This document shows, one piece after another, positions 31,235 through 64,000 of a stretch of DNA of 64,000 bases (the stretch's first letter is position 1; each line of letters opens with the position of its first letter). The position numbers and the translations under genes were made by a program. The stretch spans positions 4,576,001 through 4,640,000 of the forward strand of contig OZ245838.1 in the NCBI GenBank assembly GCA_965228735.1, read 5' to 3'. The notes beneath the pieces are model-generated. The model searched no databases, was not told where the DNA came from, and saw only the letters and a program-made list of their open reading frames with translations. The DNA comes from Planctomycetota bacterium. Lineage in GTDB: Bacteria; Planctomycetota; UBA1135; UBA2386.

Positions 31235-31960
31235 ATGACCCGCCCGACCGACGGGCCTGGGGAAGCGGCTCCGCTGACGCCGTTGTCCGAGTGGCTGCCC
31301 CCGGCGGTTCGCGCGGCTGTCGCCCCGATCGACCCGCGCATCGACGATCTGCACGCCGAAGAGGCGGCGCTGATCGAGCGGGCCGTCCCGGTGCGCCAGC
31401 GCGAGTTCGCGGCCGGGCGGCGACTCGCGCGGCGGTTGCTCGCCGAGCTCGGGTGCTCGCCGACGCCGCTACTGCGGCTATCGGATCGCAGTCCACGCTG
31501 GCCGGATCAGGTCGTCGGCACGATCGCGCACTCTCGCGAACTCTGCGCGGTCGCGGTCGCGTCGCGGGGTCATGGCATCGTCGGAGTCGGTCTCGACCTC
31601 GAACCCGATGCCGCGATGGCGCCGGAGCTCGCGAACCGGATCCTCACGGCGCGCGAGCAGGCCGCGGCGGCGGCGTTGACGCCGGCGGAACGCGGCCGGT
31701 ACGCCACCCTCGCTTTCGCGGTCAAGGAAGCGGTGTTCAAGTGCGTCCACCCGGTAGGCAACGACGGCCTCGAATTCTCGGCGGTCGAGGTCGAGCCAGA
31801 TCTCGTGAGCCTGGCCAGCGACCACTCGATGCTTCGAACTCGGCCCGCGGTGGATCTGTTGCGCCGTATCGGTTCCGCAACCCTGGAATGCGGCGCGGAG
31901 CGGCGCGCCGGGCATTGGCTCGTAGCTGCCTTGCTATCGACCGTGCCGGCGCGGCGCTGA
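31235..31960 (+). CDS. 4'-phosphopantetheinyl transferase (EntD/Sfp-type)
   Basis: RQREFAAGR, PRWP..VVGTIAHS, VGLDLE, FAVKEAVFK. Confidence 0.9.
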   Translation: MTRPTDGPGEAAPLTPLSEWLPPAVRAAVAPIDPRIDDLHAEEAALIERAVPVRQREFAAGRRLARRLLAELGCSPTPLLRLSDRSPRWPDQVVGTIAHSRELCAVAVASRGHGIVGVGLDLEPDAAMAPELANRILTAREQAAAAALTPAERGRYATLAFAVKEAVFKCVHPVGNDGLEFSAVEVEPDLVSLASDHSMLRTRPAVDLLRRIGSATLECGAERRAGHWLVAALLSTVPARR

Positions 31961-32190
31961 TTCGAATCCCACTCTCTTCAAGGTGAGAGGGGCCGTTTCT
32001 CGAAACGACTGGTGAGTCTTGGCGTTCTCGAAACGGGCCGCTATTCCATTCGACCGACAAGGCTGCACGGCATCGGGATATGCTGTATTGGAAAGGGTCT
32101 TGCCGCCACTTCTCGCCCCATCGGAATCGTGCGCCCGGCATGGCCTCACCAAGGATGAGCCCGCTCTAGAGTAACGTAAGGACTACACCG

Positions 32191-32451
32191 TTGGACCGCG
32201 ATACGACCAGCCAGATCGTCTCGATCCTGCTCGAACACGGCCGGCTCAGCCGCGACGCGGCGGAGTTGGAGCCGGAAGACAGCCTGTACGATGCCGGCAT
32301 GACGTCCCACGCCAGTGTCAGCGTCATGTTGGCGTTGGAGGAGGCGTTCGACGTGGAGTTCCCTGATAGCATGCTCAGCCGGCGGGTCTTCGAGAGCATC
32401 GGTTCCATCAGGGACGCTGTCGAGCAACTGATGACCAGTGCCCAGGGCTGA
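32191..32451 (+). CDS. Carrier protein of the aminoacyl-carrier type
   Basis: LYDAGMTSHASVSVMLALEEAFDVEFPD with the Ppant Ser; TTG start after AAGGA. Confidence 0.88.
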   Translation: MDRDTTSQIVSILLEHGRLSRDAAELEPEDSLYDAGMTSHASVSVMLALEEAFDVEFPDSMLSRRVFESIGSIRDAVEQLMTSAQG

Positions 32452-32475
32452 GGTGCCAAGGACCCGCGCCGTGCG

Positions 32476-33639
32476 ATGACCGCAACTTCGACATCGACTT
32501 CCCTCGCCGGATCGGTTTCCAGGATCGCCCGGGACGTGGCAGCAAAGCACGCCGACTCCGTCGACGCGGAGGCGCGGTTCCCGCAGGAGACGATCGATGC
32601 CCTGAAGGCCGCGGGCGCCCTCGGCGCTGCCGTTCCGAAGGAGTTCGGGGGCGCCGGCAGCAGCGTCGAAGACGTCACGCAGATGGCGCAGTCGCTCGGT
32701 GAGAACTGCGCGGCGAGCGCGATGGTGTTCGCCATGCACCACATCCAGGTGGCGAGCATCGCGAATCACTGCGGTGAGAGCACCGAGCTGCGCGACTACC
32801 TGCGCCGCGTCGCGAGCGAGCAACGCCTCATCGCGTCGGCGACGTCCGAGGTCGGACCGAGCGGCGACATGCGGCGCAGTGAGTGCGCCGTGGTTCGAAG
32901 CGGCGACGGGTTCGAGGTCACGAAGCAGGCGACGACGATCAGCTACGGCAAGTTCGCCGATGATCTGCTCCTCACGGCGCGCCGCGATTCCGAAGCCGCG
33001 AGCAACGATCAGGTCGCGGTTCTCTGCGTCGACGGTGACTACACGATCGACACCAAGGGATCGTGGGACACGCTCGGCATGCGTGGGACCTGCTCCCCGG
33101 GCGGCGAGATCAAGGTGCGCGGCAAGGCCTGGCAGGTGATGCCCGCGTTCGGCGACATGGCCACCGAGACGATGGTGCCCTACTCGCACATCACCTGGGC
33201 CGGCCTCTGGCTCGGGATCGCGGTCGACGCGGTCAATCGGGCCCGCAAGGCCGTGCGTGGTGCCGCCCGCAAGAACGCCGGTGAAGTGCCGCTCGCGGCG
33301 ACCAACCTCGCCGACACGATGGAGAAGCTGAATCGGCTGAAGGCCGAGGTCTACATGGCCGCGCAGGAGCACGATCGGCTCATCGCGAACGACCGCGAGG
33401 CGCTTTCGAGCCTCGGGTACGCGCTCCGGATCAACACGCTCAAGCTGTCGGCATCGAAGCAGGTGCCCGAGATCGTGACCGAGGCGCTGCGCATCTGCGG
33501 CATCCGCGGCTACAAGAACGACTCGGAGTTCGCGCTCGGCCGTCACCTGCGCGATTCGCTGTCGGCGGCGTTGATGGTCAACAACGATCGATTGCGCGCC
33601 ACGAACGCCTCGCTCCTCTGCATCCACAAGGGCAGCTGA
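32476..33639 (+). CDS. Acyl-CoA/acyl-ACP dehydrogenase family protein
   Basis: VDAEARFP, ASATSE, WDTLGMRGTCS, ICGIRGY, RHLRD. Confidence 0.9.
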   Translation: MTATSTSTSLAGSVSRIARDVAAKHADSVDAEARFPQETIDALKAAGALGAAVPKEFGGAGSSVEDVTQMAQSLGENCAASAMVFAMHHIQVASIANHCGESTELRDYLRRVASEQRLIASATSEVGPSGDMRRSECAVVRSGDGFEVTKQATTISYGKFADDLLLTARRDSEAASNDQVAVLCVDGDYTIDTKGSWDTLGMRGTCSPGGEIKVRGKAWQVMPAFGDMATETMVPYSHITWAGLWLGIAVDAVNRARKAVRGAARKNAGEVPLAATNLADTMEKLNRLKAEVYMAAQEHDRLIANDREALSSLGYALRINTLKLSASKQVPEIVTEALRICGIRGYKNDSEFALGRHLRDSLSAALMVNNDRLRATNASLLCIHKGS

Positions 33640-33675
33640 GGCGCTGCCCCCCTCTCGCGCACACTCCCTTCGGCC

Positions 33676-34689
33676 GTGACTGAGAGTTCGGGCAACGTGA
33701 GTTCGGCTGCCGCCAGTGCGTCGGTCTGGTCGCTCGATGCAGCGACCTACGAGAACCACGCGCTGCACAAGAACGACCGCGATTGGCAGGAATCCAACTG
33801 CTACATCGATGTCTGGATCGAGGTGCTGCACGCGCTCGGGCTCGACGTCTACGCGAGCCTGCCGTTCACCCTCGCGAGCGACTTCGAGGACGATCAGTGG
33901 ACGTTCTACAAGCCGCCGCATACCGAGCTCGAGGAGCTCTACGGTCTCGATGTCCAGGAGCTGACACTCTGGCGTGATCTCGTGTCACACTGCGTGGAGC
34001 AGACGGCCGCGAAGAAGCTGGTCTTCGTCGAGATGGACGCGTTCCACCTCCCCGACGCCGAGGGCACGGACTACCACCAGCAGCACACGAAGTCGACGAT
34101 CGCCGTCGCGAGGATCGACGCCGAGAAGCGCACACTCGGCTACTTCCACAACACGAGCTACTACGAACTCGGCGGCGCCGACTTCGAAGGCGTCTTCAAC
34201 ACCGGCGAGCGGCCGGAGGGCTACCTGCCGCCGTACGCCGAGTGGGTTCGCATCGACAAGATGGTGCGCCGACCGGACGCGGAGCTCGTCCCGTTGTCGC
34301 TCGACCTCGCCCGCAAGCACCTCCGCCGCGCACCGACCGAGAACCCGCTCGAGAAGTTCGCGGAACGCTTTCCGCGCGATCTCGACTGGCTGCTCGAACG
34401 TGATCTCGCCGCGTATCACATGTACGTCTTCGCGGGCGTGCGGCAGTGCGGTTCGTCGTTCGACTTCGCGGCCCACTACCTGCGCTGGCTCGCCGCGCGC
34501 GGGCACCCGACGCTCGCCGAGCCGGCGGAGGAGCTCGCCATGATCTCGACCGGCTGCAAGGCGCTCATCCTCAAGCTCGCGCGCATCGTCAATCGCAAGA
34601 GGCCCAAGGACCTGACCCCGGACATCCGGGAACTGGCCGGTAACTGGGATCGGGCGATGAGCGCGCTGCGGACCCAGCTCGCGCAGTGA
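33676..34689 (+). CDS. DUF1839-family protein
   Basis: WQESNCYIDVWIE, DFEDDQWTFYKPP, DAFHLPD..GTDY..QHTKS, YFHN; typical neighbour of this carrier/ACAD pair. Confidence 0.75.
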   Translation: MTESSGNVSSAAASASVWSLDAATYENHALHKNDRDWQESNCYIDVWIEVLHALGLDVYASLPFTLASDFEDDQWTFYKPPHTELEELYGLDVQELTLWRDLVSHCVEQTAAKKLVFVEMDAFHLPDAEGTDYHQQHTKSTIAVARIDAEKRTLGYFHNTSYYELGGADFEGVFNTGERPEGYLPPYAEWVRIDKMVRRPDAELVPLSLDLARKHLRRAPTENPLEKFAERFPRDLDWLLERDLAAYHMYVFAGVRQCGSSFDFAAHYLRWLAARGHPTLAEPAEELAMISTGCKALILKLARIVNRKRPKDLTPDIRELAGNWDRAMSALRTQLAQ

Positions 34690-34720: not shown

Positions 34721-37231
34721 ATGCGAGTCTCGCTGACCGAGGGTTGGATGTTCGCGGCGAGCGACGCCGGCATCGACGACCCGGCCGCGCCGGCGCTTGC
34801 GGACCTCGATTGGCGCGATGTGAGCGTGCCGGGAACCGTCGCATCGGCCCTGCGCGACCTCGGAGCCGGCGCCGATGACCGCGCAGCCATCGGCCGACGT
34901 GACCACTGGTTCCGGTGCCACTTCGCGCGACCCACGGAAAGCGCAGACGCGAGCATGAAGCTCGAGCTCGCCGGCCTCGCGTCGATCGCCGACGTCTGGC
35001 TCAACGGTGAGCACGTGCTGCACAGCGACTCGATGTTCGTCGCGCACGCCCTCGACGTCACGGATCGGCTGCAGGGCGACAACGAGCTCGTGCTGCGCTT
35101 CCATGCCCTGCTGCCGGCGCTCGGCAAGCGCCGACCGCGACCGCGGTGGCGCACGGCGCTCGTGAAGCCGCAGACGCTGCGCTACTTCCGCCAGACCCTG
35201 CTCGGGCACGTCACGGCGTGGTGTCCGGACACGATCGCGGTGGGTCCGTGGCGTGGCATCGATCTCGTCGTCGACGATGCCGTTGTCGTGCAGCGCCGCT
35301 CGGTGCGCACGAGCGTCGTCAACGGCACCGGTGTGGTCACCGTCATGCTCCAGCTGCAGCCGTGCGCGGGAACGGACCTGGACGGCGGCAGGCTCGTGGT
35401 CGGTGACCACACGGCCGAACTGGAGATCGCTCCCGGCGAGAACGGCGCGTCCGTCGCGGTCGCGCAGCTCGAGATCGCCGATGTGGAGCTGTGGTGGCCG
35501 CACACGCACGGCGGCCAGCCCCTCTATCCGGCAGCCGCCGAACTGCGCGCGGGCGGCGAGACGCTCGAGGTTCGACTCGGCAGTCTCGGCTTTCGAACGA
35601 TCGGCGAGCCGACGCTCGACCGCCCCGGCCTCGCCATCAACGGCGTCGAGATCCACGCGCGCGGCGCGTGTTGGACGACCCTCGACCTCGATCGCCTGTC
35701 TGCGGACCCCGAGGCCTACCGCGAAGCGCTCACGACGGCGCGCTATGGCGGTCTCAACATGCTGCGCGTCGGCGGCACGATGGTCTACGAGCACGACGCG
35801 TTCTATCGACTGTGCGACGAGCTCGGGATCCTCGTGTGGCAGGACTTCATGTTCGCCAACATGGACTATCCGATCGACGACCCGGAGTTTCGCGCGGCGA
35901 TCGAGCTCGAGAGCAAGCAGTTCCTCGAACGCACGCAGACCAGCTGCAGCCTCACGGTGCTGTGCGGCGGCAGCGAGGTCGAGCAGCAGGCCGCGATGCT
36001 CGGGCTGCCGCAGGAGGCCTGGTCCAACGAGTGGTTCGCGGCAGGCCTGCCGGCAATCTGCCGTGAGCTCCGGCCCGATCTGCCCTACTGGCCCTCGTCG
36101 CCGACCGGCGGCGAGCTGCCGTTCCACGTCGGGACCGGCATCGCGCACTACTTCGGCGTCGGCGCCTATCAGCGCCCGCTGGCCGACGCCCGGCTCAACG
36201 CGCCGCGGTTTGCGTCCGAGTGCCTCGCGTTCTCCAACGTGCCCGAACCCGAGAGCCTGCTCGAGCTCGGCGGCGGCGCCCTGCTCGGCCCGCACCACCC
36301 GGACTTCAAACGCGCGGTCGCGCGCGACCCCGGCACGGGCTGGGACTTCACCGACGTCACGGATCACTACGTCGAACGGCTGTTCGGCATCGATTCGCGT
36401 GACCTCCGATACGCCGACTGCGAGCGCTACTACCAGCACTGCCGGGTCGCGATCGGCGAGGTCCTCGCGACCACTGCCGGCCACTGGCGCGCCGCCGATT
36501 GCCGCAATCAGGGTGCCTTGATCTGGTTCTATCGCGACCTCGTGCTCGGCGCGGGCTGGGGCATCGTCGATGCCGCGGGGCGGCCCAAGAGCGCGTATCA
36601 CTACCTCCGACGCGCGTGGGCTCCGCGGGCCGTGTGGTTCGTCGACGATGGCCTCGATGGTCTGATCGCCCACGTCGCCAACGATGGCCCCGCACCGTTG
36701 ACCGCGAAACTGCAGGTTCGCGTCCTCGGACCGCGCGATGTGGTCACCGCCGAAGCCGAAACCGAGGTCGAGGTCGGGCCACACGCGCAGGCCGCGTTCG
36801 GCGTCGATCGACTCCTCGGCCGCTTCTGCGACACGACCTACTCCTATCGCTTCGGCCCGCGTGGTCACCACGTCATCGCCGTTCGCCTCGTGGAGGACGG
36901 CGCCGACGAGGCGATCGCGGAGGCGTGCTACTTCCCGAGCGAACTCCCGAGCGTGATGGACCCGGACGTTCGCGTGGAGGCCGAGGTCAGCGCGCAGCCC
37001 GCGGATGGTGACATCGAGATCTTCGACGTGACGTTCCGGTCGTCGCGGCTCTGCCAGGCCGTTGCGATCGATGCGCCGGGGTATCGCCCGAGCGACAACT
37101 ACTTCCACGTGCTGCCGGGCGCGCCGCGGACCGTTCGGCTCCGCGGCCGCGCCCCGCGCGGTCTGCGTGGGTTCGCGCAGCCGTTCAACTCGCCACACAC
37201 GGTTCGTCTGGTCGTTGCGCCAGACGCGTGA
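34721..37231 (+). CDS. GH2 beta-mannosidase-like glycoside hydrolase
   Basis: LWWPHTHG, NMLRVGG, CDELGILVWQDFMFA, GGSE (acid/base), FASE (nucleophile); no signal peptide seen. Confidence 0.85.
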   Translation: MRVSLTEGWMFAASDAGIDDPAAPALADLDWRDVSVPGTVASALRDLGAGADDRAAIGRRDHWFRCHFARPTESADASMKLELAGLASIADVWLNGEHVLHSDSMFVAHALDVTDRLQGDNELVLRFHALLPALGKRRPRPRWRTALVKPQTLRYFRQTLLGHVTAWCPDTIAVGPWRGIDLVVDDAVVVQRRSVRTSVVNGTGVVTVMLQLQPCAGTDLDGGRLVVGDHTAELEIAPGENGASVAVAQLEIADVELWWPHTHGGQPLYPAAAELRAGGETLEVRLGSLGFRTIGEPTLDRPGLAINGVEIHARGACWTTLDLDRLSADPEAYREALTTARYGGLNMLRVGGTMVYEHDAFYRLCDELGILVWQDFMFANMDYPIDDPEFRAAIELESKQFLERTQTSCSLTVLCGGSEVEQQAAMLGLPQEAWSNEWFAAGLPAICRELRPDLPYWPSSPTGGELPFHVGTGIAHYFGVGAYQRPLADARLNAPRFASECLAFSNVPEPESLLELGGGALLGPHHPDFKRAVARDPGTGWDFTDVTDHYVERLFGIDSRDLRYADCERYYQHCRVAIGEVLATTAGHWRAADCRNQGALIWFYRDLVLGAGWGIVDAAGRPKSAYHYLRRAWAPRAVWFVDDGLDGLIAHVANDGPAPLTAKLQVRVLGPRDVVTAEAETEVEVGPHAQAAFGVDRLLGRFCDTTYSYRFGPRGHHVIAVRLVEDGADEAIAEACYFPSELPSVMDPDVRVEAEVSAQPADGDIEIFDVTFRSSRLCQAVAIDAPGYRPSDNYFHVLPGAPRTVRLRGRAPRGLRGFAQPFNSPHTVRLVVAPDA

Positions 37232-37336: not shown

Positions 37337-38113
37337 ATGATCACCTCCGAGGAACTCGAGCGAATCGTCCGCCGGCACCTGGAGACCGGGAAAGGGGGCG
37401 AGGAAGAACTACTGCATCAGCGCGACCGCGATCGCGGCGGTCTGGCCCGGCTCCGGACCGACTCCGGTGATCAGATCATCGTCAAGATCTGGCATACGCG
37501 CGGCTTCAAGGCCCGGCTGAAGCGAGCCCTCAAGCTGAGCAACGGGTGGCGGGAATGGCGGGTCCACAGCTCGGTGTTCGCCGCCGGGGTACCGACGCCT
37601 CGGCCGTTGGGCTACTGCCGATTCGATTCGTCTGCCGGGCGATTCGAAGCGATGGGCATCGAGGATCTCGGGTCCACGACCCGCGCGCTGTTCCACCTCA
37701 AGAACCTGATCGCCGAAGGTGCCGAGGATCAGGTCACGAGGCTCGAGGAGACCCTGATCCAGTTCACCGGCAAGATGGTCAACATGGGGCTCGTCGACGT
37801 GGATCACCAGCTCAACAACTTCCTGATCGACTCGCAGGGGGCCACGTACAGGGTCGATTTCGAATGCGCGCGACCCCGGCCCGCCAGCCGCGGGACCCGC
37901 TTGTTCGCTGAGATGTTGGCGCGCCTCATCGCCAGTCACGTGTATGCCGTGCAACCGGATACCCGTCGAACGGTTGAATTCGCGCGTAGGCTCTACGCCG
38001 CGCTGCAGATCGACGCGCCAATCCGGGCCATGATCGCCGCGAGCGTGCAGTTGAAGATGGACCATCAGCGGGCCGAGCACGGCGTGAATTCGGAAGTCTC
38101 GTTGCCTCTTTGA
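37337..38113 (+). CDS. Lipopolysaccharide kinase-like protein (Kdo/WaaP/InaA family)
   Basis: IVKIW, EWRV, VPTPRPLG, DHQLNNFLI, VDFE. Confidence 0.65.
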   Translation: MITSEELERIVRRHLETGKGGEEELLHQRDRDRGGLARLRTDSGDQIIVKIWHTRGFKARLKRALKLSNGWREWRVHSSVFAAGVPTPRPLGYCRFDSSAGRFEAMGIEDLGSTTRALFHLKNLIAEGAEDQVTRLEETLIQFTGKMVNMGLVDVDHQLNNFLIDSQGATYRVDFECARPRPASRGTRLFAEMLARLIASHVYAVQPDTRRTVEFARRLYAALQIDAPIRAMIAASVQLKMDHQRAEHGVNSEVSLPL

Positions 38114-43551: not shown

Positions 43552-43758
43552 GGGGCCAGGGAACAGTACCTCAGCGGGCGTCAGCGGCCGAGCGGATTGG
43601 CCTTGCCGGGGGATGGCTCGGTCGCCTCGGCATCGGCCAGGTGTCAGATGGCTCCGAGCGGGCCTACCCGTTTTCGAGGCGATGTGCGGGCTTGGATCCT
43701 GTCCCGGCTCATGGTCAGGTTGCGGGTCGAGACCGGGCCTTCGCTTGGTCCCCTACCG

Positions 43759-44721: not shown

Positions 44722-44743
44722 GCCGGTTGGCCGGTGACACGGG

Positions 44744-53125: not shown

Positions 53126-54585
53126 CGATGGACGGTCGTTCCCTGCGATCGCGGGCACTCGCAGGGTCGTTCTGGACCCTCGGCGGATACACGACGAGCC
53201 AGCTCATTCGGCTCGGCAGCCACCTCGTCCTGGCCTGGTTGCTGGCGCCGGAGATCTTCGGGTTGATGGCACTCGTGAAGGTCGTTCAGCAGGGCCTCAC
53301 GATGTTCTCCGACATTGGCATCGCGCCGAGCATCGTACAGAGCAAGCGTGGGGACGATCCCGAGTTCCTGAACACCGCGTGGACGATTCAGATCATCCGC
53401 GGCGTGATCCTGTGGCTCGTGGCCTGTGTGCTCGCGTGGCCGTTGGCCGCGCTGTTCGCACGCAATGACCTGGCGGCCTGGCAGCTGCTCTACCTGTTGC
53501 CGGTGGCGGGATTCGGCGCCGTGTTCGACGGCTTCGCCTCGACTTCGCTCGGGACCCTGAATCGCAAGCTCTGGCTCGGGCGGGTGACATTGCTCGAGGT
53601 CGGCACGCAAGTGGCTACCGTCGCGGTGATGGTCGCCTGGGGCGCGGTATCGGCGACCGCCTGGGCCCTCGTGTTCGGGGGGTTGGCCGGCTCGCTCGTG
53701 CGCTGCGTCGTGAGCCACTACCTGGTTCCGGGTTACCGCGTGCGGATCGTCTACAATCGCGATTGCGCGCGCGAGATCCTGCACTTCGGGAAGTGGATCT
53801 TCTCGAGCACCGCCTTCACGTTCCTCGCGCTCAACCTCGACCGCCTGATCCTGGGCAACATCCTGTCTCTCGATGAGCTGGGGCTCTACTCGATCGCCCT
53901 GGTGTTCGCCAAGGTGCCGCAGCACGTGGGCTCGCGGCTGTCCTCGACCGTGCTCTTTCCGGTGTATTCGTCGTTTCGCGACCAACCGGATCGCATGGTC
54001 AGCGTGGCGTTGAAGGCGCGAGGCCTCGTGCTGCTGGTCGGGGTGGCGGTTTGCACCTGCCTCGTCGTCGTGAGCCCGATCTTCTTCTACACGTTGTGGG
54101 ACGAGCGCTATCACGAAGCGGGGACCATCGCGCAGTGGATGGCGCTCTACATCTGGGCGATGCTCGTGCAGCTGACGATGAGCCGAATCCCCCTCGCGCT
54201 CGGGAACTCCCGGGCGCTGTTCTTCGCGAACGTGTGGATGTGCGCCGGCAACCTCCTGGCGCTCGTGGGCTACGTCTACTTCGCCCTGCCCGGGTTCATT
54301 GCGGGGCTGGCCCTCGGCCCGATCGTGTCACACCTCTACCTGCTCCGGCACGTTCCCTCGGGAGCCAGAGCGCTCTTGCGACAGAGTGTGGGGTTCACGT
54401 TCGTCGCGGGCTCGTACGGCGGCCTCGCCGTTGCGGTGACCTCATACGTGCGCGCTACGTGCAGCGAGACCGCTTGGGCCTTCGCGGTCGGCGGAATGGC
54501 GCTGATACCCCTGACGATCGCGGGCGCGGTCGGAGCCGCGCAGTTGAAGAACCGCTCGGGGGCCGTTGCGGCCGCGTCTCGCTGA
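53122..54585 (+). CDS. Wzx oligosaccharide flippase
   Basis: LLAPEIFGL, FSDIGI, FLNTAWT, DRLILG, LGLYSIA; multi-TM. Confidence 0.88.
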   Translation: MTMDGRSLRSRALAGSFWTLGGYTTSQLIRLGSHLVLAWLLAPEIFGLMALVKVVQQGLTMFSDIGIAPSIVQSKRGDDPEFLNTAWTIQIIRGVILWLVACVLAWPLAALFARNDLAAWQLLYLLPVAGFGAVFDGFASTSLGTLNRKLWLGRVTLLEVGTQVATVAVMVAWGAVSATAWALVFGGLAGSLVRCVVSHYLVPGYRVRIVYNRDCAREILHFGKWIFSSTAFTFLALNLDRLILGNILSLDELGLYSIALVFAKVPQHVGSRLSSTVLFPVYSSFRDQPDRMVSVALKARGLVLLVGVAVCTCLVVVSPIFFYTLWDERYHEAGTIAQWMALYIWAMLVQLTMSRIPLALGNSRALFFANVWMCAGNLLALVGYVYFALPGFIAGLALGPIVSHLYLLRHVPSGARALLRQSVGFTFVAGSYGGLAVAVTSYVRATCSETAWAFAVGGMALIPLTIAGAVGAAQLKNRSGAVAAASR

Positions 54586-57973: not shown

Positions 57974-59020
57974 GTGAAAGCAGCCATCATCGGAGCGGGT
58001 CATATTGCTCGTGCCCACATGGCTTGTCTGCGCGACTTGCCGGGGGTGGAGACCGCGGCGGTCTGCGATCTCTCCCGCACGCTGGCGGAGTCCGCGGCGG
58101 ATCAGTTCGGGATTCCCAACTGGTATACGGACTACAAGAGGATGTTGGAGGTCGAGCGGCCGGACGTCGTGCATATCGCGACGCCGCCGCGGAGCCACTA
58201 CGCGATGGCCGTAGATGCGCTCGAAGCGGGCGCGCACGTCTTCATCGAGAAGCCCATCGTCACCGAGTTCGACGATCTGAAGTCGCTCGTCGAGCTCGCC
58301 GATGCAAAGGAACGGATCCTGATCGAGGATCACAACTATCTCTTCAATCGGTCGGTCCAGAAAGTGCTGGGGTGGGTCGAATCGGGAGAGTTCGGCGAGG
58401 TGGCTCACATCGACGCGGTCATCGGCCTGGGGATCCTCGGCGAGGGCAGCCGGATGGCCGATCCGAACGTGCCGCATCCGAGCCTCGATCTGCCGGGTGG
58501 AGTGATCGCCGAATTCCTGACCCACCTCGCGTACATGAGCTGGGCGTTCGTCGGGCCAGCGCGTTCCGTCGCGACCAACTGGCGCAAACGGCAGGCGGAC
58601 TCGCCTCTCCCATCCGATGATTTCCGGGCTTTGATCGATGCCGAGCGTGGGACCGCGAGTCTCGTGTTCAGCGCGCACATCCAGCCGGATGCGTTCTTCA
58701 TCCGGGTTCACGGCAGCAAGATGCGGGCCGAAGCCCACCTGTTCGAACCGAAGTTGGTGAGCGAGCGGGTTCGCGGGGCGGGGCCGCTGACGCCGATCCT
58801 CAACGGGGTGGCGCTTGCACGAAAGGAGCTGCGTTCGGCCTGCGCCAGCTTGTGGCGCAAATTGAGCGGTGGCCCCGGGAGCTACGAGGGGCAAACGGAA
58901 CTCCTGCGGCGAAGCTACGAGAGCTTCGCGAAGGGCACACCGCCGCCGATCTCGATCGCCCAGATCGAAGACGTCAACCGCCTCGTCGCCGAGGTCGTGA
59001 ACGAGGCCAATCAGATATGA
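57974..59020 (+). CDS. Gfo/Idh/MocA oxidoreductase
   Basis: IIGAGHIA, HIATPPRSH, VFIEKP. Confidence 0.88.
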   Translation: MKAAIIGAGHIARAHMACLRDLPGVETAAVCDLSRTLAESAADQFGIPNWYTDYKRMLEVERPDVVHIATPPRSHYAMAVDALEAGAHVFIEKPIVTEFDDLKSLVELADAKERILIEDHNYLFNRSVQKVLGWVESGEFGEVAHIDAVIGLGILGEGSRMADPNVPHPSLDLPGGVIAEFLTHLAYMSWAFVGPARSVATNWRKRQADSPLPSDDFRALIDAERGTASLVFSAHIQPDAFFIRVHGSKMRAEAHLFEPKLVSERVRGAGPLTPILNGVALARKELRSACASLWRKLSGGPGSYEGQTELLRRSYESFAKGTPPPISIAQIEDVNRLVAEVVNEANQI

Positions 59021-60024
59021 AAGTCCTGATCACCGGCGCCAGCGGCTTCCTCGGCCGTCGAGTCGTGGCGGCGTTCCTCGCGAAGGGCGTCGACGTCCGG
59101 GTCATGGTTCGGCCCGCGACTCGAGTCGAGCGGTTCGGCTGGCCTGACAGCGTCGAGATCGTCAGGCACGACCTTCGGGCGCGAGGTTCACTGCAAGCGG
59201 CGTTCGACGGCGTGGACACGTTGGTCCACCTCGCCGCGTGCGTCGGTGGGGACGACGACGAGCGCTTCGCCTCGACGGTGGTCGGAACGGAGCACCTGCT
59301 CAGCGCGATGGCGCAATCGCAGGCTCGCCGCCTCGTGCTCGCCAGCACCTTTTCGGTCTACGACTGGTCCGCGATCCGCGGCACCCTCGACGAGTCTTCG
59401 CCTCTCGAGGCCGATCTCTACACCCGGGACAGCTATGCGGTGACCAAGTTTTGGCAAGAACGCATGGTGATTCGCATGAGCGAGGAGAACGGTTGGGATC
59501 TGCGGGTCCTGCGCCCGGGTTTCATCTGGGGCGAGGGCAACTCCGACCTCGCGGGGATCGGGCAGCGCTTCGGGCGGTTCAGCTTCGTGTTCGGGCTCCC
59601 CAATCGCCGCATGCCGCTGACCCACGTCGACAACTGTGCCGATTGTTTCGTCGCGGTGACCCTCGCCGAGGGGCTCGAGGGGCAGATCTTCAACGTCGTC
59701 GACGACGCGGGGGTCTCGGCCTGGCGTTACGACCGCGTGTACCTTCGTCGCAGCGGTCGCAAGGGTATCCGAATTCCGGTCCCGTACCGTTTGGCCTACT
59801 GGGGCACGCGGGTTGCTCAGCGGATCAGCAAGTGGGTCTTCCGCGGTAAGGGGAAGTTGCCGAGCATCCTCGTGCCCTGTCGATTCGAGGCCCGGTTCAA
59901 GCCGTTGCGATTCTCGAACCAGAAGCTCGCGGACCAAGTCGGTTGGACTCCGCCGCTGAGCTACGAAGAGTGTCTCGAGCGGACGTTCCGGTCAGAGGAG
60001 ACCGATCCGCTCGTGACCCAATAG
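59017..60024 (+). CDS. NAD-dependent epimerase/dehydratase (extended SDR)
   Basis: ITGASGFLG, VHLAA, YAVTK, LRPGFIWG; ATGA overlap. Confidence 0.9.
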   Translation: MKVLITGASGFLGRRVVAAFLAKGVDVRVMVRPATRVERFGWPDSVEIVRHDLRARGSLQAAFDGVDTLVHLAACVGGDDDERFASTVVGTEHLLSAMAQSQARRLVLASTFSVYDWSAIRGTLDESSPLEADLYTRDSYAVTKFWQERMVIRMSEENGWDLRVLRPGFIWGEGNSDLAGIGQRFGRFSFVFGLPNRRMPLTHVDNCADCFVAVTLAEGLEGQIFNVVDDAGVSAWRYDRVYLRRSGRKGIRIPVPYRLAYWGTRVAQRISKWVFRGKGKLPSILVPCRFEARFKPLRFSNQKLADQVGWTPPLSYEECLERTFRSEETDPLVTQ

Positions 60025-60038
60025 AGTCGACCCACCGA

Positions 60039-61349
60039 GTGTCCAAGCCCAGCTCACCCGATACGCAGCTTCCCGATCCGGCCAGCGCCGGCGATCGGCC
60101 ATCGATTGCCTACTTGACCAGCGTCTATCCGCGCGCGACCGACACGTTCGTGCGAGCGGAGATCGTCGCCCTCGAGGAGCTCGGGTTCGACATCCATCGC
60201 TTCGGCGTGCGACGCCCTGACGCATCGCAGCTCGTCAGCGCAGCAGTCGAGGACGAGGCGAAGCGCACGACCTACCTGCTCGGCCGAGACCGCCTGTTGG
60301 CGCTCATGCTGGCCGCAGTCGCTGCGGCGCTCGGGTCGCCGGTGCGGACCATCCGTGCCGTGCCGCTGACGTTCTCGACGGGCGGCCGCGGCCTCGCGGC
60401 CCGGATCCGGCAGGTCGCCTATTTGTTCGAGGCGATGCTGCTCGCTCGTGAGCTGCGGCGTCGTCGGGTAGACCACCTGCACAACCACATCTCCGAGAAC
60501 TCGGCGCACGTCGCGATGCTGGCCTCCCAGCTGACCGGCATTCCGTTCAGCACCACCGTCCACGGGATGGAGTTGCTGTCCGCGGCCGAACTCGGGCTTG
60601 GCGAGAAGATCGAGCGCTCGGCGTTCACGGTGTGCATCAGCGGATTCACGCGCAGCCAGTGCATGATGCACCTGTCGCGCTCGACGTGGGCGAAGCTCGT
60701 TGTCGTTCGCTGTGGCGTCGGGGCGGAGTTTCTCGAAGCCGCTGCGGCGCCGTTCCCCGAGCGCCACCGGTTCGTGTGTGTCGGCCGGCTGAGCCCGGAG
60801 AAAGGGCATCTGCAGCTCATCGAGGCAGCGCGACTGCTGGCCGAGGCCGGCCTGGACTTCGAACTGGTGATCGTGGGCGATGGTGAGCTGCGCCCAGAGC
60901 TCGAGATCCAGATCGCGAGCAGTGGGTTGGACGAGCGGGTGAGGATCGCGGGGTGGCTCGACAGTGGTGCCGTTCGTCGCGCGATCGAGTCGTCGAGCGT
61001 TCTCGTCGTGCCGAGCTTCAGCGAGGGTATTCCTGTCGCGATCATGGAAGCGCTGGCGCTCGGTCGACCGGTCGTGAGCTCACGGGTCGGTGGGATTCCG
61101 GAACTCGTCGAGCACGGGAAGAGCGGATGGCTCGTGACCCCGGGCTCCGTCGAGTCTCTGGTGGCAGGCATGACGGCAGCCATCCAGGCCGGGCCGGAAG
61201 AACTTGCCGAGAAGGGCGGCAGCGGTGCTGAGCGGGTGCGCCAGTTGCACGATGTGACGGTCGAGGCCGCGAAGCTCGCTGCGCGGTTTCGAGCGGTGAT
61301 CGCTGGTCAGGCCGTCAGCTCGGGTAAGGGGCCGACTGTCCGTGCGTAA
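60039..61349 (+). CDS. Glycosyltransferase family 4, WcaL-like
   Basis: YPRATDTFV..EI, VGRLSPEKG, SEGIPVAIMEA. Confidence 0.9.
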   Translation: MSKPSSPDTQLPDPASAGDRPSIAYLTSVYPRATDTFVRAEIVALEELGFDIHRFGVRRPDASQLVSAAVEDEAKRTTYLLGRDRLLALMLAAVAAALGSPVRTIRAVPLTFSTGGRGLAARIRQVAYLFEAMLLARELRRRRVDHLHNHISENSAHVAMLASQLTGIPFSTTVHGMELLSAAELGLGEKIERSAFTVCISGFTRSQCMMHLSRSTWAKLVVVRCGVGAEFLEAAAAPFPERHRFVCVGRLSPEKGHLQLIEAARLLAEAGLDFELVIVGDGELRPELEIQIASSGLDERVRIAGWLDSGAVRRAIESSSVLVVPSFSEGIPVAIMEALALGRPVVSSRVGGIPELVEHGKSGWLVTPGSVESLVAGMTAAIQAGPEELAEKGGSGAERVRQLHDVTVEAAKLAARFRAVIAGQAVSSGKGPTVRA

Positions 61350-61414: not shown

Positions 61415-62242
61415 ATGAGCGTCATTCCGGATATTCCCGCCATGGTGGCTGACCCACTTCCGGAGGTCGTGCTGACTGGCGTGCGCATTCACGCGATCGA
61501 CCAGCCACGGTGCGTTGCCCGTGTCATGGAGAGCCTCGACGCCGAGCGGGGTGGATGGATCGCGACGGCGAACCTCGACCATCTGCGCCGGTTGCGAAGC
61601 GACGCCGAGTTCCGCCGCGTCTACGACGACGCGGCGCTCGTCGTCGCCGATGGCATGCCGTTGGTTTGGGCGGCGAGACTCCAGGGCACGCCGCTACCGG
61701 AGCGCGTGGCAGGGTCCGATCTGATCCACAGTCTGTCGGCCGCTGCAGCAGAACGAGGGCGTCGTATCTTCCTGGTCGGCGGAGACCCTGGTACGGCGGA
61801 AGCCGCCGCGGCCAAGTTGGCGGCCGACAATCCGGGCCTGCAGGTCGCCGGTACCGACTGTCCGCCGTTCGGTTTCGAGCGTGATCCGGACCAGATGGCC
61901 GACCTGCGGCGCAAGCTGGCCGCGAGCGGCGCCGACCTCGTTTTCGTTGGGCTGGGCTCGCCCAAACAGGAGTTCCTGATCGACGCGATTCATGAAGTGC
62001 TGCCGGCCGCATGGTGGGTGGGCATCGGCATCAGTTTCAGCTTCGTCTGCGGTGAAGTCCGACGGGCCCCGGTCTGGGTACGGCGGGTCGGACTGGAATG
62101 GGCTCATCGCTTGCTGCAAGAACCCCGCCGACTCGGAGCGCGGTACCTCTGGCACGGGCCGCCCTTCGTCATGCGCCTGTTTGCGTCCGCGCTGTTCAGG
62201 CGCTTTCGGCCATCATCGGGCCGAACCCCGAGGAACCGGTAG
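61415..62242 (+). CDS. WecB/TagA/CpsF (GT26) glycosyltransferase
   Basis: TANLDH, VADGMP, ERVAGSD, GLGSPKQE, LEWAHRLLQEPRRL. Confidence 0.92.
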   Translation: MSVIPDIPAMVADPLPEVVLTGVRIHAIDQPRCVARVMESLDAERGGWIATANLDHLRRLRSDAEFRRVYDDAALVVADGMPLVWAARLQGTPLPERVAGSDLIHSLSAAAAERGRRIFLVGGDPGTAEAAAAKLAADNPGLQVAGTDCPPFGFERDPDQMADLRRKLAASGADLVFVGLGSPKQEFLIDAIHEVLPAAWWVGIGISFSFVCGEVRRAPVWVRRVGLEWAHRLLQEPRRLGARYLWHGPPFVMRLFASALFRRFRPSSGRTPRNR

Positions 62243-62351
62243 TCCGGACTGCGATGCGAATTCTCTGCAATCATCCTCGCGCAGGTCACTCGCCCCGGCG
62301 GCTTCGGCTGCAGGCGCGCTCTGCTCCACGTTCGGGCATGACAGCTCGGGG

Positions 62352-63260
62352 ATGGCAATCGTGACCCTTCCGACCTTCCTCGTGATCGGCGCCGAGAAGG
62401 CCGGGACCACCGCGCTGCACGCGGCTCTCGATCGCCATCCGCGGGTGTTCATGAGCAACCCGAAGGAACCCTCCTTCTTCCTCTCCGAGGATTCGCGTTA
62501 TCTCGAGCAGGATCTGATGGGGCAGCCCCACGGCGACATCCGGACCCTCGCGGAGTACGAGGCTCTCTTCGCGGCCGCCGCGCCGGGGCAGGCGATCGGA
62601 GAATCCTCGCCCTGCTACCTCTACAGCCCCGACGCCGCCCGCTTCATCAAGAGCCTGATCCCCGACGTGCGCATCGTCGTGATGCTGCGTGATCCGGCGG
62701 AGCGGGCTTTCTCGCAGTTCACGTTCAATCAGCAGCGTGGTTGGGAGCCGCTATCCAGGACCTTCCAGGAAGCGCTCGCGCTCGAGGACGAGAGGGTGCG
62801 GGCGAACTCGATGTGGGCGTTCCACTACGTCAATCGTGGCATGTACGCGCGTCAGCTCGCGCCATACGTGGAGACGTTCGGTGACCAATTGCGGGCCTGG
62901 GCCTACGACGAGTTCGTCAAGGATCCTGCGAAGGTGCTGGGCGAGATCCACGATTTCCTGGGCGTGGAACGTGTCGATCTGGAAGAGCCCGCCCAGAGGA
63001 AGAACGTCACCTCGCTGCCACGGCTCGGGATCATCCGCCAGTTGCTCGATCGCCCGAATCCCGTGAAGGCCCTGGTCGGCCGTCTGATTCCGACGCACTT
63101 TCGGCGAGCCATGGGCGCGAGACTGCGGCAGTGGAACTCCCGCCGCCCGGAGCGCGACGACAGTTCGATCGCGTCGCTGAGGCCACGCTTCGTGGACGAC
63201 ATCGAGGCGCTGGCGTCCGGGTTGCTACCTGGAGCGCGGCGGTGGTTGGAGCGCGACTGA
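62352..63260 (+). CDS. Sulfotransferase
   Basis: IGAEKAGTT (5'-PSB), KEPSFF, GESSPCY, LRDPAERAFS (3'-PB). Confidence 0.9.
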   Translation: MAIVTLPTFLVIGAEKAGTTALHAALDRHPRVFMSNPKEPSFFLSEDSRYLEQDLMGQPHGDIRTLAEYEALFAAAAPGQAIGESSPCYLYSPDAARFIKSLIPDVRIVVMLRDPAERAFSQFTFNQQRGWEPLSRTFQEALALEDERVRANSMWAFHYVNRGMYARQLAPYVETFGDQLRAWAYDEFVKDPAKVLGEIHDFLGVERVDLEEPAQRKNVTSLPRLGIIRQLLDRPNPVKALVGRLIPTHFRRAMGARLRQWNSRRPERDDSSIASLRPRFVDDIEALASGLLPGARRWLERD

Positions 63261-63264
63261 GCCG

Positions 63265-63999
63265 TTACGCGGAGCGTTCGTGACCCGCAGTCTCTTCGCG
63301 GATGGCGGCCGCGAGGAGTGCGGCGTGGTCGAGCATGGTGTTGTGGTTCCCGGGTACCCACTCGACGCGCAAAGTACGGAAGCTCTTGCCCCAGCCGTTG
63401 TCTGGATCCATGACCCGGACGCCCGAGCCGTTGACCGACGTCGCTCTCGTGCCGGGGCCCAGCCAGACCTTCCGTTCGTCTCGGGGGCGGAAGAGCAGAA
63501 CGGGGATATCCAGACTCGGCGGCGAGAACGCGGCCGCGGCAACCTTGAATGCGTCTCGAATCCGGATCGAGCGGATCTGGCTCGGTGTGAGTCTCTCGGC
63601 GGGCTCTCGGTTGGCCGGGTTGCTCGGCGAAGCGTCGTCGTTCCGCCCCAGGCTGTGGCGGGCCTTCGTCAGCACTGCCTTGGAGATGCCACCCTCGTGC
63701 AGCAGCCGGCGGATCTGGAACATCCGGCGTTGCCAACCCTGCAGACGGCTCGTGGGGTGGCGGGTGTCGATGAGAAACAGCCCGGAAACGGTTTCGCCGG
63801 CGTCAATGAGTTGTTGCGCCATTGCCATCGCTATCAACCCGCCTCCGGAGTAGCCGCCGAGGTGATACGGCCCGTTGGGTTTCACCTGGCGGATCTCGCG
63901 GAGGAAGTCGCGAGCGGCGTCCTCGATCGTCTCGTGTGGCCCGTCATCTCCGAGAACGCCGCGGTACTGCAGCCCGAACACCGGCCGGTCCTCGAACTC
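63265..63999 (-). CDS. Type I thioesterase domain, 3' part of a probable PKS/NRPS gene (5'-truncated)
   Basis: Frame is open to the window edge; PVFGLQ, GPYHLGGYSGGG, LIDT, PGNHNTML. Confidence 0.8.
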   Translation of the reverse strand, partial: EFEDRPVFGLQYRGVLGDDGPHETIEDAARDFLREIRQVKPNGPYHLGGYSGGGLIAMAMAQQLIDAGETVSGLFLIDTRHPTSRLQGWQRRMFQIRRLLHEGGISKAVLTKARHSLGRNDDASPSNPANREPAERLTPSQIRSIRIRDAFKVAAAAFSPPSLDIPVLLFRPRDERKVWLGPGTRATSVNGSGVRVMDPDNGWGKSFRTLRVEWVPGNHNTMLDHAALLAAAIREETAGHERSA

Positions 64000-64000
64000 G

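What the first reader, a model, noticed from the sequence alone, without database searches (positions are those of the whole stretch)
31235..64000. Wzx/Wzy polysaccharide locus wired to carrier-protein and PKS/NRPS chemistry
Seen: one ~33-kb block joins a Wzc-like/Wzy/Wzx core and four glycosyltransferases with a PPTase, a free carrier protein, ACAD, DUF1839, LarA, an ATP-grasp ligase, AsnB, two GNATs, FkbM, a hexapeptide acetyltransferase, a kinase, a sulfotransferase and a type I TE tail. Known: PKS-like genes occur in capsule loci (rkpA, wcbR). Inference: the product is a heavily acylated/amidated/sulfated and possibly lipid-anchored glycan, with secondary-metabolism enzymes building the substituents. 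I do not know this combination as a described pathway.
Basis: partly seen in the sequence, partly recalled or inferred. Interest (0 to 1): 0.8.

Follow-up and report, generated by a model that had tools for sequence, protein, structure and literature searches.

The report
Polysaccharide island with carrier-protein modules
A 46-kb stretch that is missing from this bacterium's two closest relatives joins surface-sugar polymer genes with several known carrier-protein and peptide-making gene sets; these sets recur beside such genes in relatives and likely add small acyl groups to the sugar coat, although one set lacks its usual loading enzyme here and none of the chemistry is tested.

Summary
The named genes are real, but the unit is a 45.6-kb island (31,235-76,863) absent from both congeners, and it is a mosaic of known modules. 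(1) A Wzx/Wzy core like Myxococcus EPS, common in this family. DUF1839 folds like CcbD/CtaG carrier-dependent transacylases (Z 19.6). Its SerRS-like loading ligase is missing from this genome; an orphan adenylation enzyme of the cassette's alternative loader lineage lies 3.2 Mb away. (3) The 'TE tail' ends an intact FkbH-T-TE protein, a common architecture. (4) A kinase-type lasso-peptide cluster just past the window edge. No PKS or NRPS lies in the window; an NRPS/PKS pair 16 kb beyond the island sits inside this EPS locus in 5 of 12 relatives read. One family member (G433) has homologues of 27 of 39 island genes, reshuffled, plus the ligase. LarA, ATP-grasp, FkbM, kinase and GNATs are not co-conserved; a lipid anchor has no support. 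Glycan acylation is likely but untested. The scan noted this cassette and lasso-type cassettes in EPS loci before, on other DNA. New variant of known kinds; interest 0.5.

The parts
31235..31960 (+). EntD/Npt-type 4'-phosphopantetheinyl transferase; left end of island, 19 bp after purF
   Evidence: PF17837 + PF01648; three best relatives sit beside a PKS T-TE end; no BLAST hit in 21 DUF1839 loci
32191..32451 (+). Aminoacyl carrier protein of the amino acid:[carrier protein] ligase cassette (Ser39)
   Evidence: NF005480 94.1 bits, cut-off 72; best PDB hits are the Atu2571 carrier, E 5e-15
32476..33639 (+). Acyl-CoA/acyl-ACP dehydrogenase of the cassette
   Evidence: PF02771, PF00441; in 20 of 21 DUF1839 loci
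33640..33675 (.). 36-bp gap where 19 of 21 homologous loci carry the SerRS-like ligase; no remnant found
   Evidence: junction bridged in 4 of 4 runs
33676..34689 (+). DUF1839, predicted CcbD/CtaG-fold carrier-dependent transacylase (Cys42, His137, Thr141, His158, Asp169 conserved)
34721..37231 (+).
   Evidence: 16 of 21 loci; PMC10318531 supplement
37337..38113 (+). Possible Kdo/WaaP-like kinase (weak)
   Evidence: PF06293 E 0.015, below cut-off
38611..40920 (+). Ig/PKD/beta-helix protein with signal-like N-terminus; homologues in EPS loci of G007 and G011
40999..41829 (-). FkbM-family methyltransferase
   Evidence: TIGR01444 100.8 bits, cut-off 37.7
42050..42904 (+). alpha/beta hydrolase; 49% homologue beside the acetyltransferase and GH2 in G433
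42958..43551 (-). Hexapeptide acetyltransferase (EpsC/CysE-like)
43756..44721 (+). GT2 glycosyltransferase
   Evidence: 57-69% to EPS loci of relatives
44744..45319 (-). GNAT acetyltransferase
   Evidence: PF00583 24.3 bits
45621..46919 (+). LarA-family nickel-pincer 2-hydroxyacid racemase; motifs intact; no close family homologue
   Evidence: (best 33%); LarC-type gene elsewhere in genome
47093..48325 (+). ATP-grasp-like ligase
   Evidence: Atlas 0.98 to ATP-grasp clusters; no Pfam or PDB hit
48322..49323 (+). GT2 glycosyltransferase
49556..51775 (+). Wzc-like polysaccharide co-polymerase without Walker A
51812..53125 (+). Wzy-like polymerase
   Evidence: Atlas 0.99, Wzy_C cluster; homologues next to Wzx in G011, G028, G036, G007, G039
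53122..54585 (+). Wzx flippase
   Evidence: PF13440 153.9 bits
54618..55691 (-). GNAT, Acetyltransf_6 type
   Evidence: PF13480 131.5 bits
55855..57792 (-). AsnB-type amidotransferase
   Evidence: TIGR01536 421 bits; 54% homologues in G028 and G033 EPS loci
57974..59020 (+). Gfo/Idh/MocA oxidoreductase
59017..60024 (+). NAD-dependent epimerase/dehydratase
59943..61349 (+). GT4 glycosyltransferase (EpsE-like; true start probably later)
61415..62242 (+). WecG/TagA glycosyltransferase (EpsA-like)
62352..63260 (+). Sulfotransferase; 66% homologue in G433 with two small genes between it and DUF1839
63265..64000 (-). TE end of a 958-aa FkbH(HAD-IIIC)-T-TE protein that starts at 66,141 on the window scale (genome position minus 4,576,000). 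The island goes on beyond the edge: two unknown proteins, two polysaccharide deacetylases and a third GT2 (66,355-70,245, -), Wza (70,303-71,025, -), HPr-kinase-like enzyme (71,087-71,992, -), 56-aa lasso precursor (72,067-72,237, -), lasso cyclase (72,344-74,209, -), RRE, B2 peptidase and ABC-2 exporter (74,300-76,863, +). Outside the island: PF14907 nucleotidyltransferase (80,264-81,358, +) and NRPS/PKS pair (92,827-103,917, +)
   Evidence: TIGR01686 266 bits, PF00550, PF00975; catalytic residues conserved; genes beyond the edge:

Best explanation
This is a 45.6-kb island, absent from both congeners, in which a Wzx/Wzy polysaccharide core sits with a carrier-protein cassette, an FkbH-T-TE gene and a lasso-peptide cluster, and the carrier modules likely supply small acyl groups for the polymer's repeat unit rather than forming one new pathway. 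Shown: gene content, island ends, co-occurrence in G433, absence of the ligase. Inferred steps: (a) a priming transferase encoded elsewhere would start the lipid-linked repeat, five GTs extend it, Wzx flips, Wzy/Wzc polymerise, Wza exports; acetyl, amide, sulfate and methyl groups would come from the usual tailoring genes. (b) In the complete cassette (as in G433) the SerRS-like ligase would load a small amino acid on the ACP, ACAD would oxidise it, and DUF1839 would pass the acyl group through Cys42 to an amine, likely an amino sugar. In this genome step (b) is likely stalled, or rescued by the orphan adenylation enzyme at genome 1,366,195-1,367,751, which belongs to the cassette's other loader lineage. 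(c) FkbH would load glyceryl from 1,3-bisphosphoglycerate on its own T domain and the TE would release or transfer it. (d) The PPTase likely primes these carriers and the NRPS/PKS pair 16 kb past the island. (e) The lasso cluster is predicted to make a Trp1-Glu8 lasso peptide phosphorylated on its last Ser.
For: Island ends: purF abuts the O-methyltransferase in G001 and G002 and lies 1.3 kb from it in G007. Co-travel: G433 has homologues of 27 of 39 island genes on seven contigs, with ACP-ACAD next to a GT2, DUF1839 close to the sulfotransferase, and GH2 between FkbH-T-TE and the acetyltransferase, while DUF1839 is found in only 1 of 90 other family genomes and the close full-length FkbH-T-TE only in that same genome. 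DUF1839 model pLDDT 91.5; CcbD Z 19.6 (rmsd 3.6, 288 aligned), AziU3 18.0, CtaG 17.8, next 8.7; CcbD acylates an amino sugar from a carrier protein. A published context analysis also guessed glycan processing. DUF1839 cassettes lie beside GT or sugar-pathway genes in at least 5 of 21 loci. EPS core interleaved with the NRPS/PKS in G028, G033, G036, G037, G039 and G462. Lasso B2 above cut-off in 6 of 91 family genomes, and all 5 others lie beside Wza, Wzc or GT homologues.
Against: The ligase is absent, and ACP, ACAD and DUF1839 all fall on the ligase-type side of their trees (100/100, 100, 100/100), so the orphan A domain is not the cognate loader. The cassette also lacks the adjacent AcpS and the double hydrolase seen in 12 of 21 loci each. 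Up to 16 of 21 DUF1839 loci show no GT in their (often short) flanks. The same fold is used by AziU3, which is not a sugar acylase (recalled), and by CtaG, whose acceptor is a peptide. DUF1839's triad is non-canonical. The NRPS-LLM/PKS has no EPS gene nearby in 7 of 12 relatives read, and the KS tree does not sort by EPS linkage. The genome has two other PPTases. Full co-occurrence rests on one other genome, assembled in about 750 contigs. LarA, FkbM, kinase, GNATs, AsnB, Gfo, epimerase, PPTase and the beta-helix protein were not found in the G433 contigs read.
Confidence: 0.5

Rival explanations
1. Passengers: the carrier cassette, FkbH-T-TE, lasso cluster and NRPS/PKS make separate small molecules and only accumulate in polysaccharide loci because these are hot spots for gene gain; the polymer is an ordinary acetylated/sulfated EPS and the ligase-less cassette here is decaying.
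For: Each module often stands without EPS genes (up to 16 of 21 DUF1839 loci; 7 of 12 NRPS/PKS loci; FkbH homologues in G023 and G022 show no island homologues nearby). FkbH-T-TE is common (2,529 hits at E 1e-80 among 7,995 scored). Loss of the ligase suggests the cassette is dispensable. G433 has an ISL3 transposase beside the cassette.
Against: The two rarest modules (DUF1839 cassette, close full FkbH-T-TE) meet in the same 2 of 91 family genomes and are interleaved with glycan genes in different orders; no frameshift in the window's cassette, no lost invariant residue and no long terminal branch for DUF1839 or ACP; lasso loci are EPS-linked in 6 of 6 cases. Shared descent from one island could explain these without shared function.
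Confidence: 0.3
2. Conjugate: the modules converge on a glycoconjugate in which the phospho-Ser lasso peptide (through the nucleotidyltransferase) and/or the NRPS/PKS product is joined to Wzy-made sugar chains, giving a peptide- or lipid-capped surface polymer.
For: 8 of 8 precursors found end in Ser; kinase and PF14907 homologues accompany all 6 lasso clusters, all in EPS context; pseudomycoidin shows kinase plus nucleotidyltransferase adding hexoses to the phospho-Ser; the Roseobacter NRPS/PKS/GT/PPTase cluster had no known product in the paper read.
Against: Known enzymes add one or two hexoses only; the lasso cluster has its own ABC exporter; 32 of 90 family genomes match the EPS core at DNA level but only 5 of 90 have B2 above cut-off, so the polymer does not need the peptide; the nucleotidyltransferase and NRPS/PKS lie outside the island here.
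Confidence: 0.13
3. Trans-rescue is the normal state here: the orphan stand-alone A domain has replaced the lost ligase, so the cassette works with a changed amino acid.
For: The orphan is 57% identical to the A domains that stand in place of the ligase in L017 and L023; 11 of 34 loci of its close homologues carry DUF1839 and 0 of 34 carry the ligase, against 0 of 41 more distant A-domain loci with DUF1839; no relative among 40 has a close copy (best rows 33-38% over the full length), matching the rarity of the cassette.
Against: It is 3.2 Mb away; the window's ACP is of the other lineage; 23 of the 34 loci show no DUF1839 in their flanks; G433 has no close copy (best 36%) but has the ligase. 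This rival differs from the best explanation only at step (b).
Confidence: 0.2
4. Assembly artefact: the island or the missing ligase is a mis-join.
For: Genome is 93% complete by markers.
Against: 30,500-38,500 lies in one contig without differences in two runs and the ligase-less junction is bridged in 4 of 4 runs.
Confidence: 0.02

Closest known systems
Amino acid:[carrier protein] ligase cassette of Bradyrhizobium (Bll0957) and Agrobacterium (carrier Atu2571), with ACAD, DUF1839 and GH2 (context in PMC10318531 supplement; original biochemistry recalled, paper not held)
   Same: ACP passes NF005480; ACAD, DUF1839, GH2 in the published order; G433's ligase passes NF005479 and matches Bll0957 at E 1e-73.
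   Different: No ligase in this genome; no adjacent AcpS or double hydrolase; sits in an EPS island. A second lineage that uses a stand-alone NRPS A domain instead of the ligase was found here.
CcbD/LmbD (lincosamides), CtaG (closthioamide), BtrH (butirosin): papain-like carrier-dependent amide-forming enzymes
   Same: Bipartite papain-like plus helical fold over the whole length (Z 17.8-19.6 for CtaG and CcbD; BtrH not among the hits, linked through); conserved N-terminal Cys.
   Different: 11-17% identity; non-canonical triad; donor and acceptor unknown.
Myxococcus xanthus EPS pathway (EpsA, C, D, E, V, Y, Wzx, Wzy; PMC7484181)
   Same: Best or high NCBIfam hits of WecG, acetyltransferase, GT2, GT4 and Wza are EpsA, EpsC, EpsD, EpsE, EpsY; same Wzx/Wzy layout with five GTs.
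   Different: All below the equivalog cut-offs; no EpsZ-type priming gene in the island; extra carrier and lasso modules.
Roseobacter four-gene NRPS/PKS/glycosyltransferase/PPTase cluster (PMC4337385)
   Same: In G028 and G033 an NRPS, a PKS, a WecG GT and a PPTase lie together in the EPS locus.
   Different: Likeness is by gene content only, no Roseobacter sequence was compared; here the PPTase and WecG are in the island and the NRPS/PKS 16 kb beyond it.
Phosphorylated and phosphoglycosylated lasso peptides (paeninodin, pseudomycoidin; PMC8498205)
   Same: Precursor, cyclase, RRE, B2, kinase, nucleotidyltransferase, exporter, C-terminal Ser, nearby sulfotransferase.
   Different: Trp1 core; embedded in polysaccharide loci in 6 of 6 family cases; nucleotidyltransferase displaced 3.4 kb outside the island.
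rkpA/wcbR capsule clusters (PMC3908369)
   Same: PKS-type chemistry beside surface-polysaccharide genes.
   Different: No PKS in the window or island; export is Wzx/Wzy/Wza; the outlying PKS ends in T-TE and pairs with an LLM-containing NRPS.

Membership tests
Wzx/Wzy-dependent polysaccharide locus | Wzx flippase | tested here: met
   PF13440 153.9 bits
Wzx/Wzy-dependent polysaccharide locus | Wzy polymerase | tested here: inconclusive
   No Pfam hit; Atlas 0.99 with a Wzy_C cluster; adjacent to Wzx in 5 relatives; O-antigen ligase not excluded
Wzx/Wzy-dependent polysaccharide locus | Co-polymerase and OPX export protein | tested here: met
   Wzc-like 49,556-51,775 (TIGR03007 below cut-off, no Walker A) and Wza PF02563 32.6 bits above cut-off
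Wzx/Wzy-dependent polysaccharide locus | Priming phosphoglycosyl transferase | tested here: inconclusive
   None in the island; three PF02397 genes elsewhere in the genome; G028's locus has one
Amino acid:[carrier protein] ligase cassette | Dedicated aminoacyl carrier protein | tested here: met
   NF005480 94.1, cut-off 72
Amino acid:[carrier protein] ligase cassette | ACAD, DUF1839 and GH2 neighbours | tested here: met
Amino acid:[carrier protein] ligase cassette | SerRS-like ligase | tested here: not met
   NF005479 0 matches, tblastn with three ligases 0 matches in the genome; filed as a ligase-less derivative, not a full member
CcbD/CtaG/BtrH carrier-dependent transacylases | Papain-like plus helical bipartite fold | tested here: met
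   (predicted model)
CcbD/CtaG/BtrH carrier-dependent transacylases | Cys-His-Asp/Glu triad | tested here: inconclusive
   Cys42 in at least 90% and His137, Thr141, His158, Asp169 in all 28 rows; geometry not inspected; published model gives a C(T/S)H site
CcbD/CtaG/BtrH carrier-dependent transacylases | Acyl transfer from a carrier protein to an amine | not testable with these tools
   needs an assay
FkbH glyceryl-loading module | HAD DxDxT motif, conserved Cys, T-domain Ser, TE Ser/His | tested here: met
   TIGR01686 266, cut-off 146.65; residues conserved against 60 homologues; motif roles recalled
Class II lasso peptide cluster, kinase type | Precursor with Thr at -2, acidic residue at 7-9 and C-terminal Ser | tested here: met
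   C-terminal Ser rule from PMC8498205; Thr and ring rules recalled
Class II lasso peptide cluster, kinase type | Cyclase, RRE and B2 peptidase | tested here: met
   PF05402 59.6 and NF033537 78.3 above cut-off; cyclase 499.6 just under the 525 cut-off of NF033535
Class II lasso peptide cluster, kinase type | Threaded, phosphorylated product | not testable with these tools
   needs expression and MS/NMR
Myxococcus EPS (Eps equivalogs) | EpsA, C, D, E, Y above NCBIfam cut-offs; EpsZ in locus | tested here: not met
   180.7/500, 82.2/150, 76.7/370, 241/400, 34.7/320; works like it, not a member
XrtA/PEP-CTERM exosortase EPS system | Exosortase in the locus and system-specific models above cut-off | tested here: not met
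   Exosortase lies in another locus near genome 1.004 Mb; TIGR03007, 03027, 03108 below cut-off
rkpA/wcbR capsule cluster | Type I PKS inside the polysaccharide cluster | tested here: not met
   No KS domain among the island genes scanned; the outlying PKS was not compared with RkpA/WcbR
Roseobacter NRPS/PKS/GT/PPTase cluster | Sequence orthology to the Roseobacter genes | not tested
   Gene-content likeness only

The most novel reading that the evidence does not exclude
These islands build a surface polymer that is decorated by thiotemplated chemistry: DUF1839 is the long-missing output enzyme of the amino acid:carrier-protein cassette and amidates an amino sugar with an oxidised small amino acid, the cassette runs with either of two interchangeable loaders (SerRS-like ligase or stand-alone A domain, here swapped in trans after loss of the ligase), FkbH-T-TE adds glyceryl groups, and a phospho-Ser lasso peptide is joined to the glycan, giving a lasso-peptide-bearing polysaccharide.
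Probability: 0.1. Interest if true: 0.85.

Novelty: new variant of a known kind. Interest (0 to 1): 0.5.

Why it matters
The product of the amino acid:carrier-protein cassette is unknown (recalled; the only paper found that names DUF1839 with a carrier protein offers a context-based guess). The fold match to CcbD/CtaG gives a specific assay, and this genome and G433 form a natural pair, without and with the ligase. The split of the cassette into a ligase lineage and an A-domain lineage, with congruent trees, was not met in the ten literature searches run, which miss most subscription journals. The lasso peptide is a concrete new member with a conserved core and a consistent link to polysaccharide loci. 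If the modules prove to be passengers, this is an ordinary variable EPS island.

Tried and rejected
Exosortase/PEP-CTERM, rkpA/wcbR and strict Myxococcus Eps membership: rejected (see Membership tests). Window PPTase as a native part of the DUF1839 cassette: rejected, no hit in 21 loci, which use a short AcpS type in 12. LarA as a conserved part: no close homologue in 90 family genomes. Remnant of the ligase in the genome: none found. Trees asking whether the outlying NRPS/PKS groups with EPS-linked copies: KS tree no clustering (500 of 500 shuffles as low), LLM tree places it with G037 and G039 at unstarred support; inconclusive. PDB sequence searches for the ATP-grasp protein and ACAD found nothing useful. 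No tRNA in 52 kb from window position 62,001 onward, no Rfam match in 29,000-64,000, promoter and terminator counts at or below chance in 29,600-42,000; no integrase or transposase among the island genes scanned. Expression: no RNA holder listed. Whether more distant strains keep the ligase at this spot remains open. The original aa:CP ligase paper was not held. The host lineage was not determined; the Atlas neighbour of Wzy is mostly Planctomycetota, a lead only. Look-ups of earlier findings near this place, in look-alike DNA and for FkbH/NRPS words returned nothing.

Full report
Observation. No KS, C or A domain was found in the stretch.

Real extent. The window is genome position 4,576,001-4,640,000 of a 7.19-Mb contig; positions above 64,000 are given on the same scale. 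In both congeners purF is followed directly by the O-methyltransferase that lies at 76,875 here, and in G007 the two are 1.3 kb apart. So 31,235-76,863 (39 genes) is an island, most simply a gain. It continues past the window with the rest of the TE-bearing gene, two deacetylases, a fifth GT, Wza and a lasso cluster. A nucleotidyltransferase (80,264) is absent at its spot in both congeners, and an NRPS/PKS pair (92,827-103,917) is absent at its spot in G001 and G433. The stretch 30,500-38,500 lies in one contig without differences in 2 of 4 runs laid and the ACAD-DUF1839 junction is bridged in 4 of 4.

Module 1, the polysaccharide core. Wzx, Wzy-like, Wzc-like, Wza, WecG, three GT2 and one GT4 resemble the Myxococcus EPS set but score below every Eps cut-off (PMC7484181, passages read). 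Pieces of 44,700-62,300 match DNA in 32 of 90 other family genomes, so the core is ordinary for this family. No priming transferase is in the island; three are elsewhere. The exosortase belongs to another locus.

Module 2, the carrier cassette. The ACP passes NF005480 and is closest to Atu2571. ACP, ACAD, ligase, DUF1839 and GH2 are a published conserved cluster (PMC10318531, passages and part 1 of 3 of supplement 3 read). Of 21 loci found with the window's DUF1839, 19 have the SerRS-like ligase, 20 ACAD, 19 ACP, 16 GH2, 12 an AcpS, 12 a double hydrolase; the search was seeded by this protein, so these are not frequencies for the family. This genome has no ligase, no double hydrolase and only a 36-bp gap at the ligase position. 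The two loci without ligase have a stand-alone A domain just before the ACP, and this genome holds a 57% identical orphan at 1,366,195-1,367,751. Among 75 metagenome loci of that A domain, 11 of the 34 close ones (48% or more) carry DUF1839 and none the ligase; 0 of the 41 more distant or short ones carry DUF1839 (the 34 include one copy of this genome's own gene, two duplicates and many short contigs). Trees split the cassettes into a ligase lineage and an A-domain lineage for DUF1839 (29 rows, 100/100), ACAD (28 rows, quick method, 100) and ACP (24 rows, 100/100), and this genome's genes fall in the ligase lineage, DUF1839 and ACP as sister to G433 (three duplicate loci and short hits left out; midpoint root only). 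The ligase was therefore most likely lost, and the orphan is a non-cognate candidate loader. DUF1839 modelled from 28 sequences (pLDDT 91.5) matches CcbD (Z 19.6, rmsd 3.6, 288 aligned), AziU3 (18.0) and CtaG (17.8), the next row being 8.7. CcbD transfers a carrier-bound amino acid through a Cys to an amino sugar, and CtaG and BtrH use carrier-bound donors (PMC12945683 and PMC12865890, passages read). A shared fold does not fix the chemistry. At least 5 of the 21 loci (L011, L015, L019, L022, L024) have GT or sugar-pathway genes in the flank; only 85 chosen proteins from these loci were scanned. DUF1839 is in 0 of 40 sampled relatives, 1 of 400 phylum genomes and 1 of 90 family genomes.

Module 3, the TE. 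It ends a 958-aa FkbH-T-TE protein with HAD, Cys, T-Ser, TE-Ser and His residues conserved against 60 homologues. The architecture is common: 2,529 proteins at E 1e-80 among 7,995 scored, many of about 1,000 aa with T and TE domains among the 120 listed. Glyceryl loading by FkbH is established knowledge (recalled; search listing only). In the family 4 of 90 genomes match the FkbH part and only G433 has the close full-length form.

Module 4, the lasso cluster. Kinase, a 56-aa precursor (Thr at -2, Trp1, Glu8, last residue Ser), cyclase, RRE, B2 and exporter fill 71,087-76,863. This is the paeninodin/pseudomycoidin type (PMC8498205, passages read). B2 is above cut-off in 6 of 91 family genomes; all 5 others were read and lie beside Wza, Wzc or GT homologues, with kinase and nucleotidyltransferase homologues (in G433 on a second contig); all 7 precursors found there end in Ser, and those of G433 and G462 share most of the core.

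The PPTase and the megasynthases. The window PPTase hits 10 of 40 relatives; the three best lie directly beside a PKS T-TE end, two weak ones near the LLM-NRPS, five contexts were not read. The LLM-NRPS family is above cut-off in 19 of 40 relatives. Flanks were read for 12 (for G036 the PKS contig only): EPS-core genes are interleaved in 5 (G028, G033, G036, G037, G039) and not seen in 7; G462 adds a sixth with the lasso cluster in the same 60 kb. This echoes the uncharacterised Roseobacter NRPS/PKS/GT/PPTase cluster (PMC4337385, passages read), by gene content only. Trees did not show whether this genome's pair belongs with the EPS-linked copies. Two other PPTases exist in the genome.

Co-occurrence of the whole. 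G433 (the genome of locus L005; the same genome appears as G460, same family, about 750 contigs, GyrA 78%) has homologues of 27 of the 39 island genes on seven contigs chosen by similarity, 2 more weak, 10 not seen. On single contigs: precursor-kinase-nucleotidyltransferase-GT2-ACP-ACAD; ligase-DUF1839-two unknowns-sulfotransferase; NRPS-hydrolase-acetyltransferase-GH2-FkbH-T-TE; GT2-GT4-MBOAT-Wzc-Wza-Wzx-deacetylase-GT2-cyclase-RRE-B2-ABC (some genes between left out). The first contig ends inside ACAD and the second starts inside the ligase, so their join is inferred. Identities (ACP 71, ACAD 74, DUF1839 75, GH2 62, FkbH-T-TE 54%) and a different order show that the modules have stayed together through rearrangement, but one shared ancestral island can explain this without shared function.

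Mechanism and odds. Best reading (0.5): an EPS island whose carrier modules likely furnish amide- or ester-linked small acyl groups, with the amino-acid branch stalled or rescued in this genome. Rivals: independent passengers (0.3); peptide- or polyketide-glycan conjugate (0.13); artefact (0.02); rescue by the orphan A domain (0.2) is a variant of step (b), not exclusive of the best reading. Sugar composition, acceptor, amino acid and expression are unknown.

What is known and new. All four modules are described; PKS genes in capsule loci are too (PMC3908369, passages read). Ten searches found no paper on this combination or on the two loader lineages, but the library lacks most subscription papers, the original ligase paper was not held, and supplements other than the one named were not read. 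Verdict: new variant of known kinds, interest 0.5; the most novel reading has about 0.1 probability and would deserve 0.85.

Noticed in passing
71,087-76,863 on the window scale (L001), beyond the window edge: Complete kinase-type lasso-peptide cluster with a short precursor ORF; Trp1 core largely shared with G433 and G462; all six family clusters lie in polysaccharide loci.
   Followed up: yes
L026:10195-11751 (genome 1,366,195-1,367,751): Orphan stand-alone amino-acid adenylation enzyme of the lineage that replaces the SerRS-like ligase in DUF1839 cassettes; flanked by apparently unrelated proteins.
   Followed up: yes
L002:10827 onward (92,827-103,917 on the window scale): NRPS with a luciferase-like monooxygenase inserted in its A domain, followed by a PKS ending in T-TE; no canonical HHxxxDG motif found in the C domain.
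   Followed up: partly
L050, L063, L065: FkbH protein, small carrier-sized ORF and double alpha/beta hydrolase lie near the A-domain gene, beside priming-transferase, sulfotransferase or nucleotide-sugar genes: a second setting where FkbH meets glycan genes.
   Followed up: partly
FkbH-T-TE homologues: The TE nucleophile position is Ser in 31 and Cys in 30 of 61 aligned proteins.
   Followed up: no
window 32,476-33,639: The ACAD ends in a conserved motif without the C-terminal catalytic Glu of MCAD-type enzymes (motif seen in six homologues; the Glu rule is recalled).
   Followed up: no
genome about 996,000-1,007,000: A separate exosortase-linked EPS locus with its own AsnB, GT4-like genes and deacetylase-like gene.
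   Followed up: no
window 38,611-40,920: Ig/PKD/beta-helix protein with two paralogues near genome 1.89 and 1.95 Mb and homologues in EPS loci of G007 and G011.
   Followed up: no
L024: The DUF1839 cassette there is broken into many pieces, probably by sequencing errors.
   Followed up: no
P0001: A 94% identical FkbH-T-TE on a 36-kb contig shows a close second strain with at least this gene.
   Followed up: no
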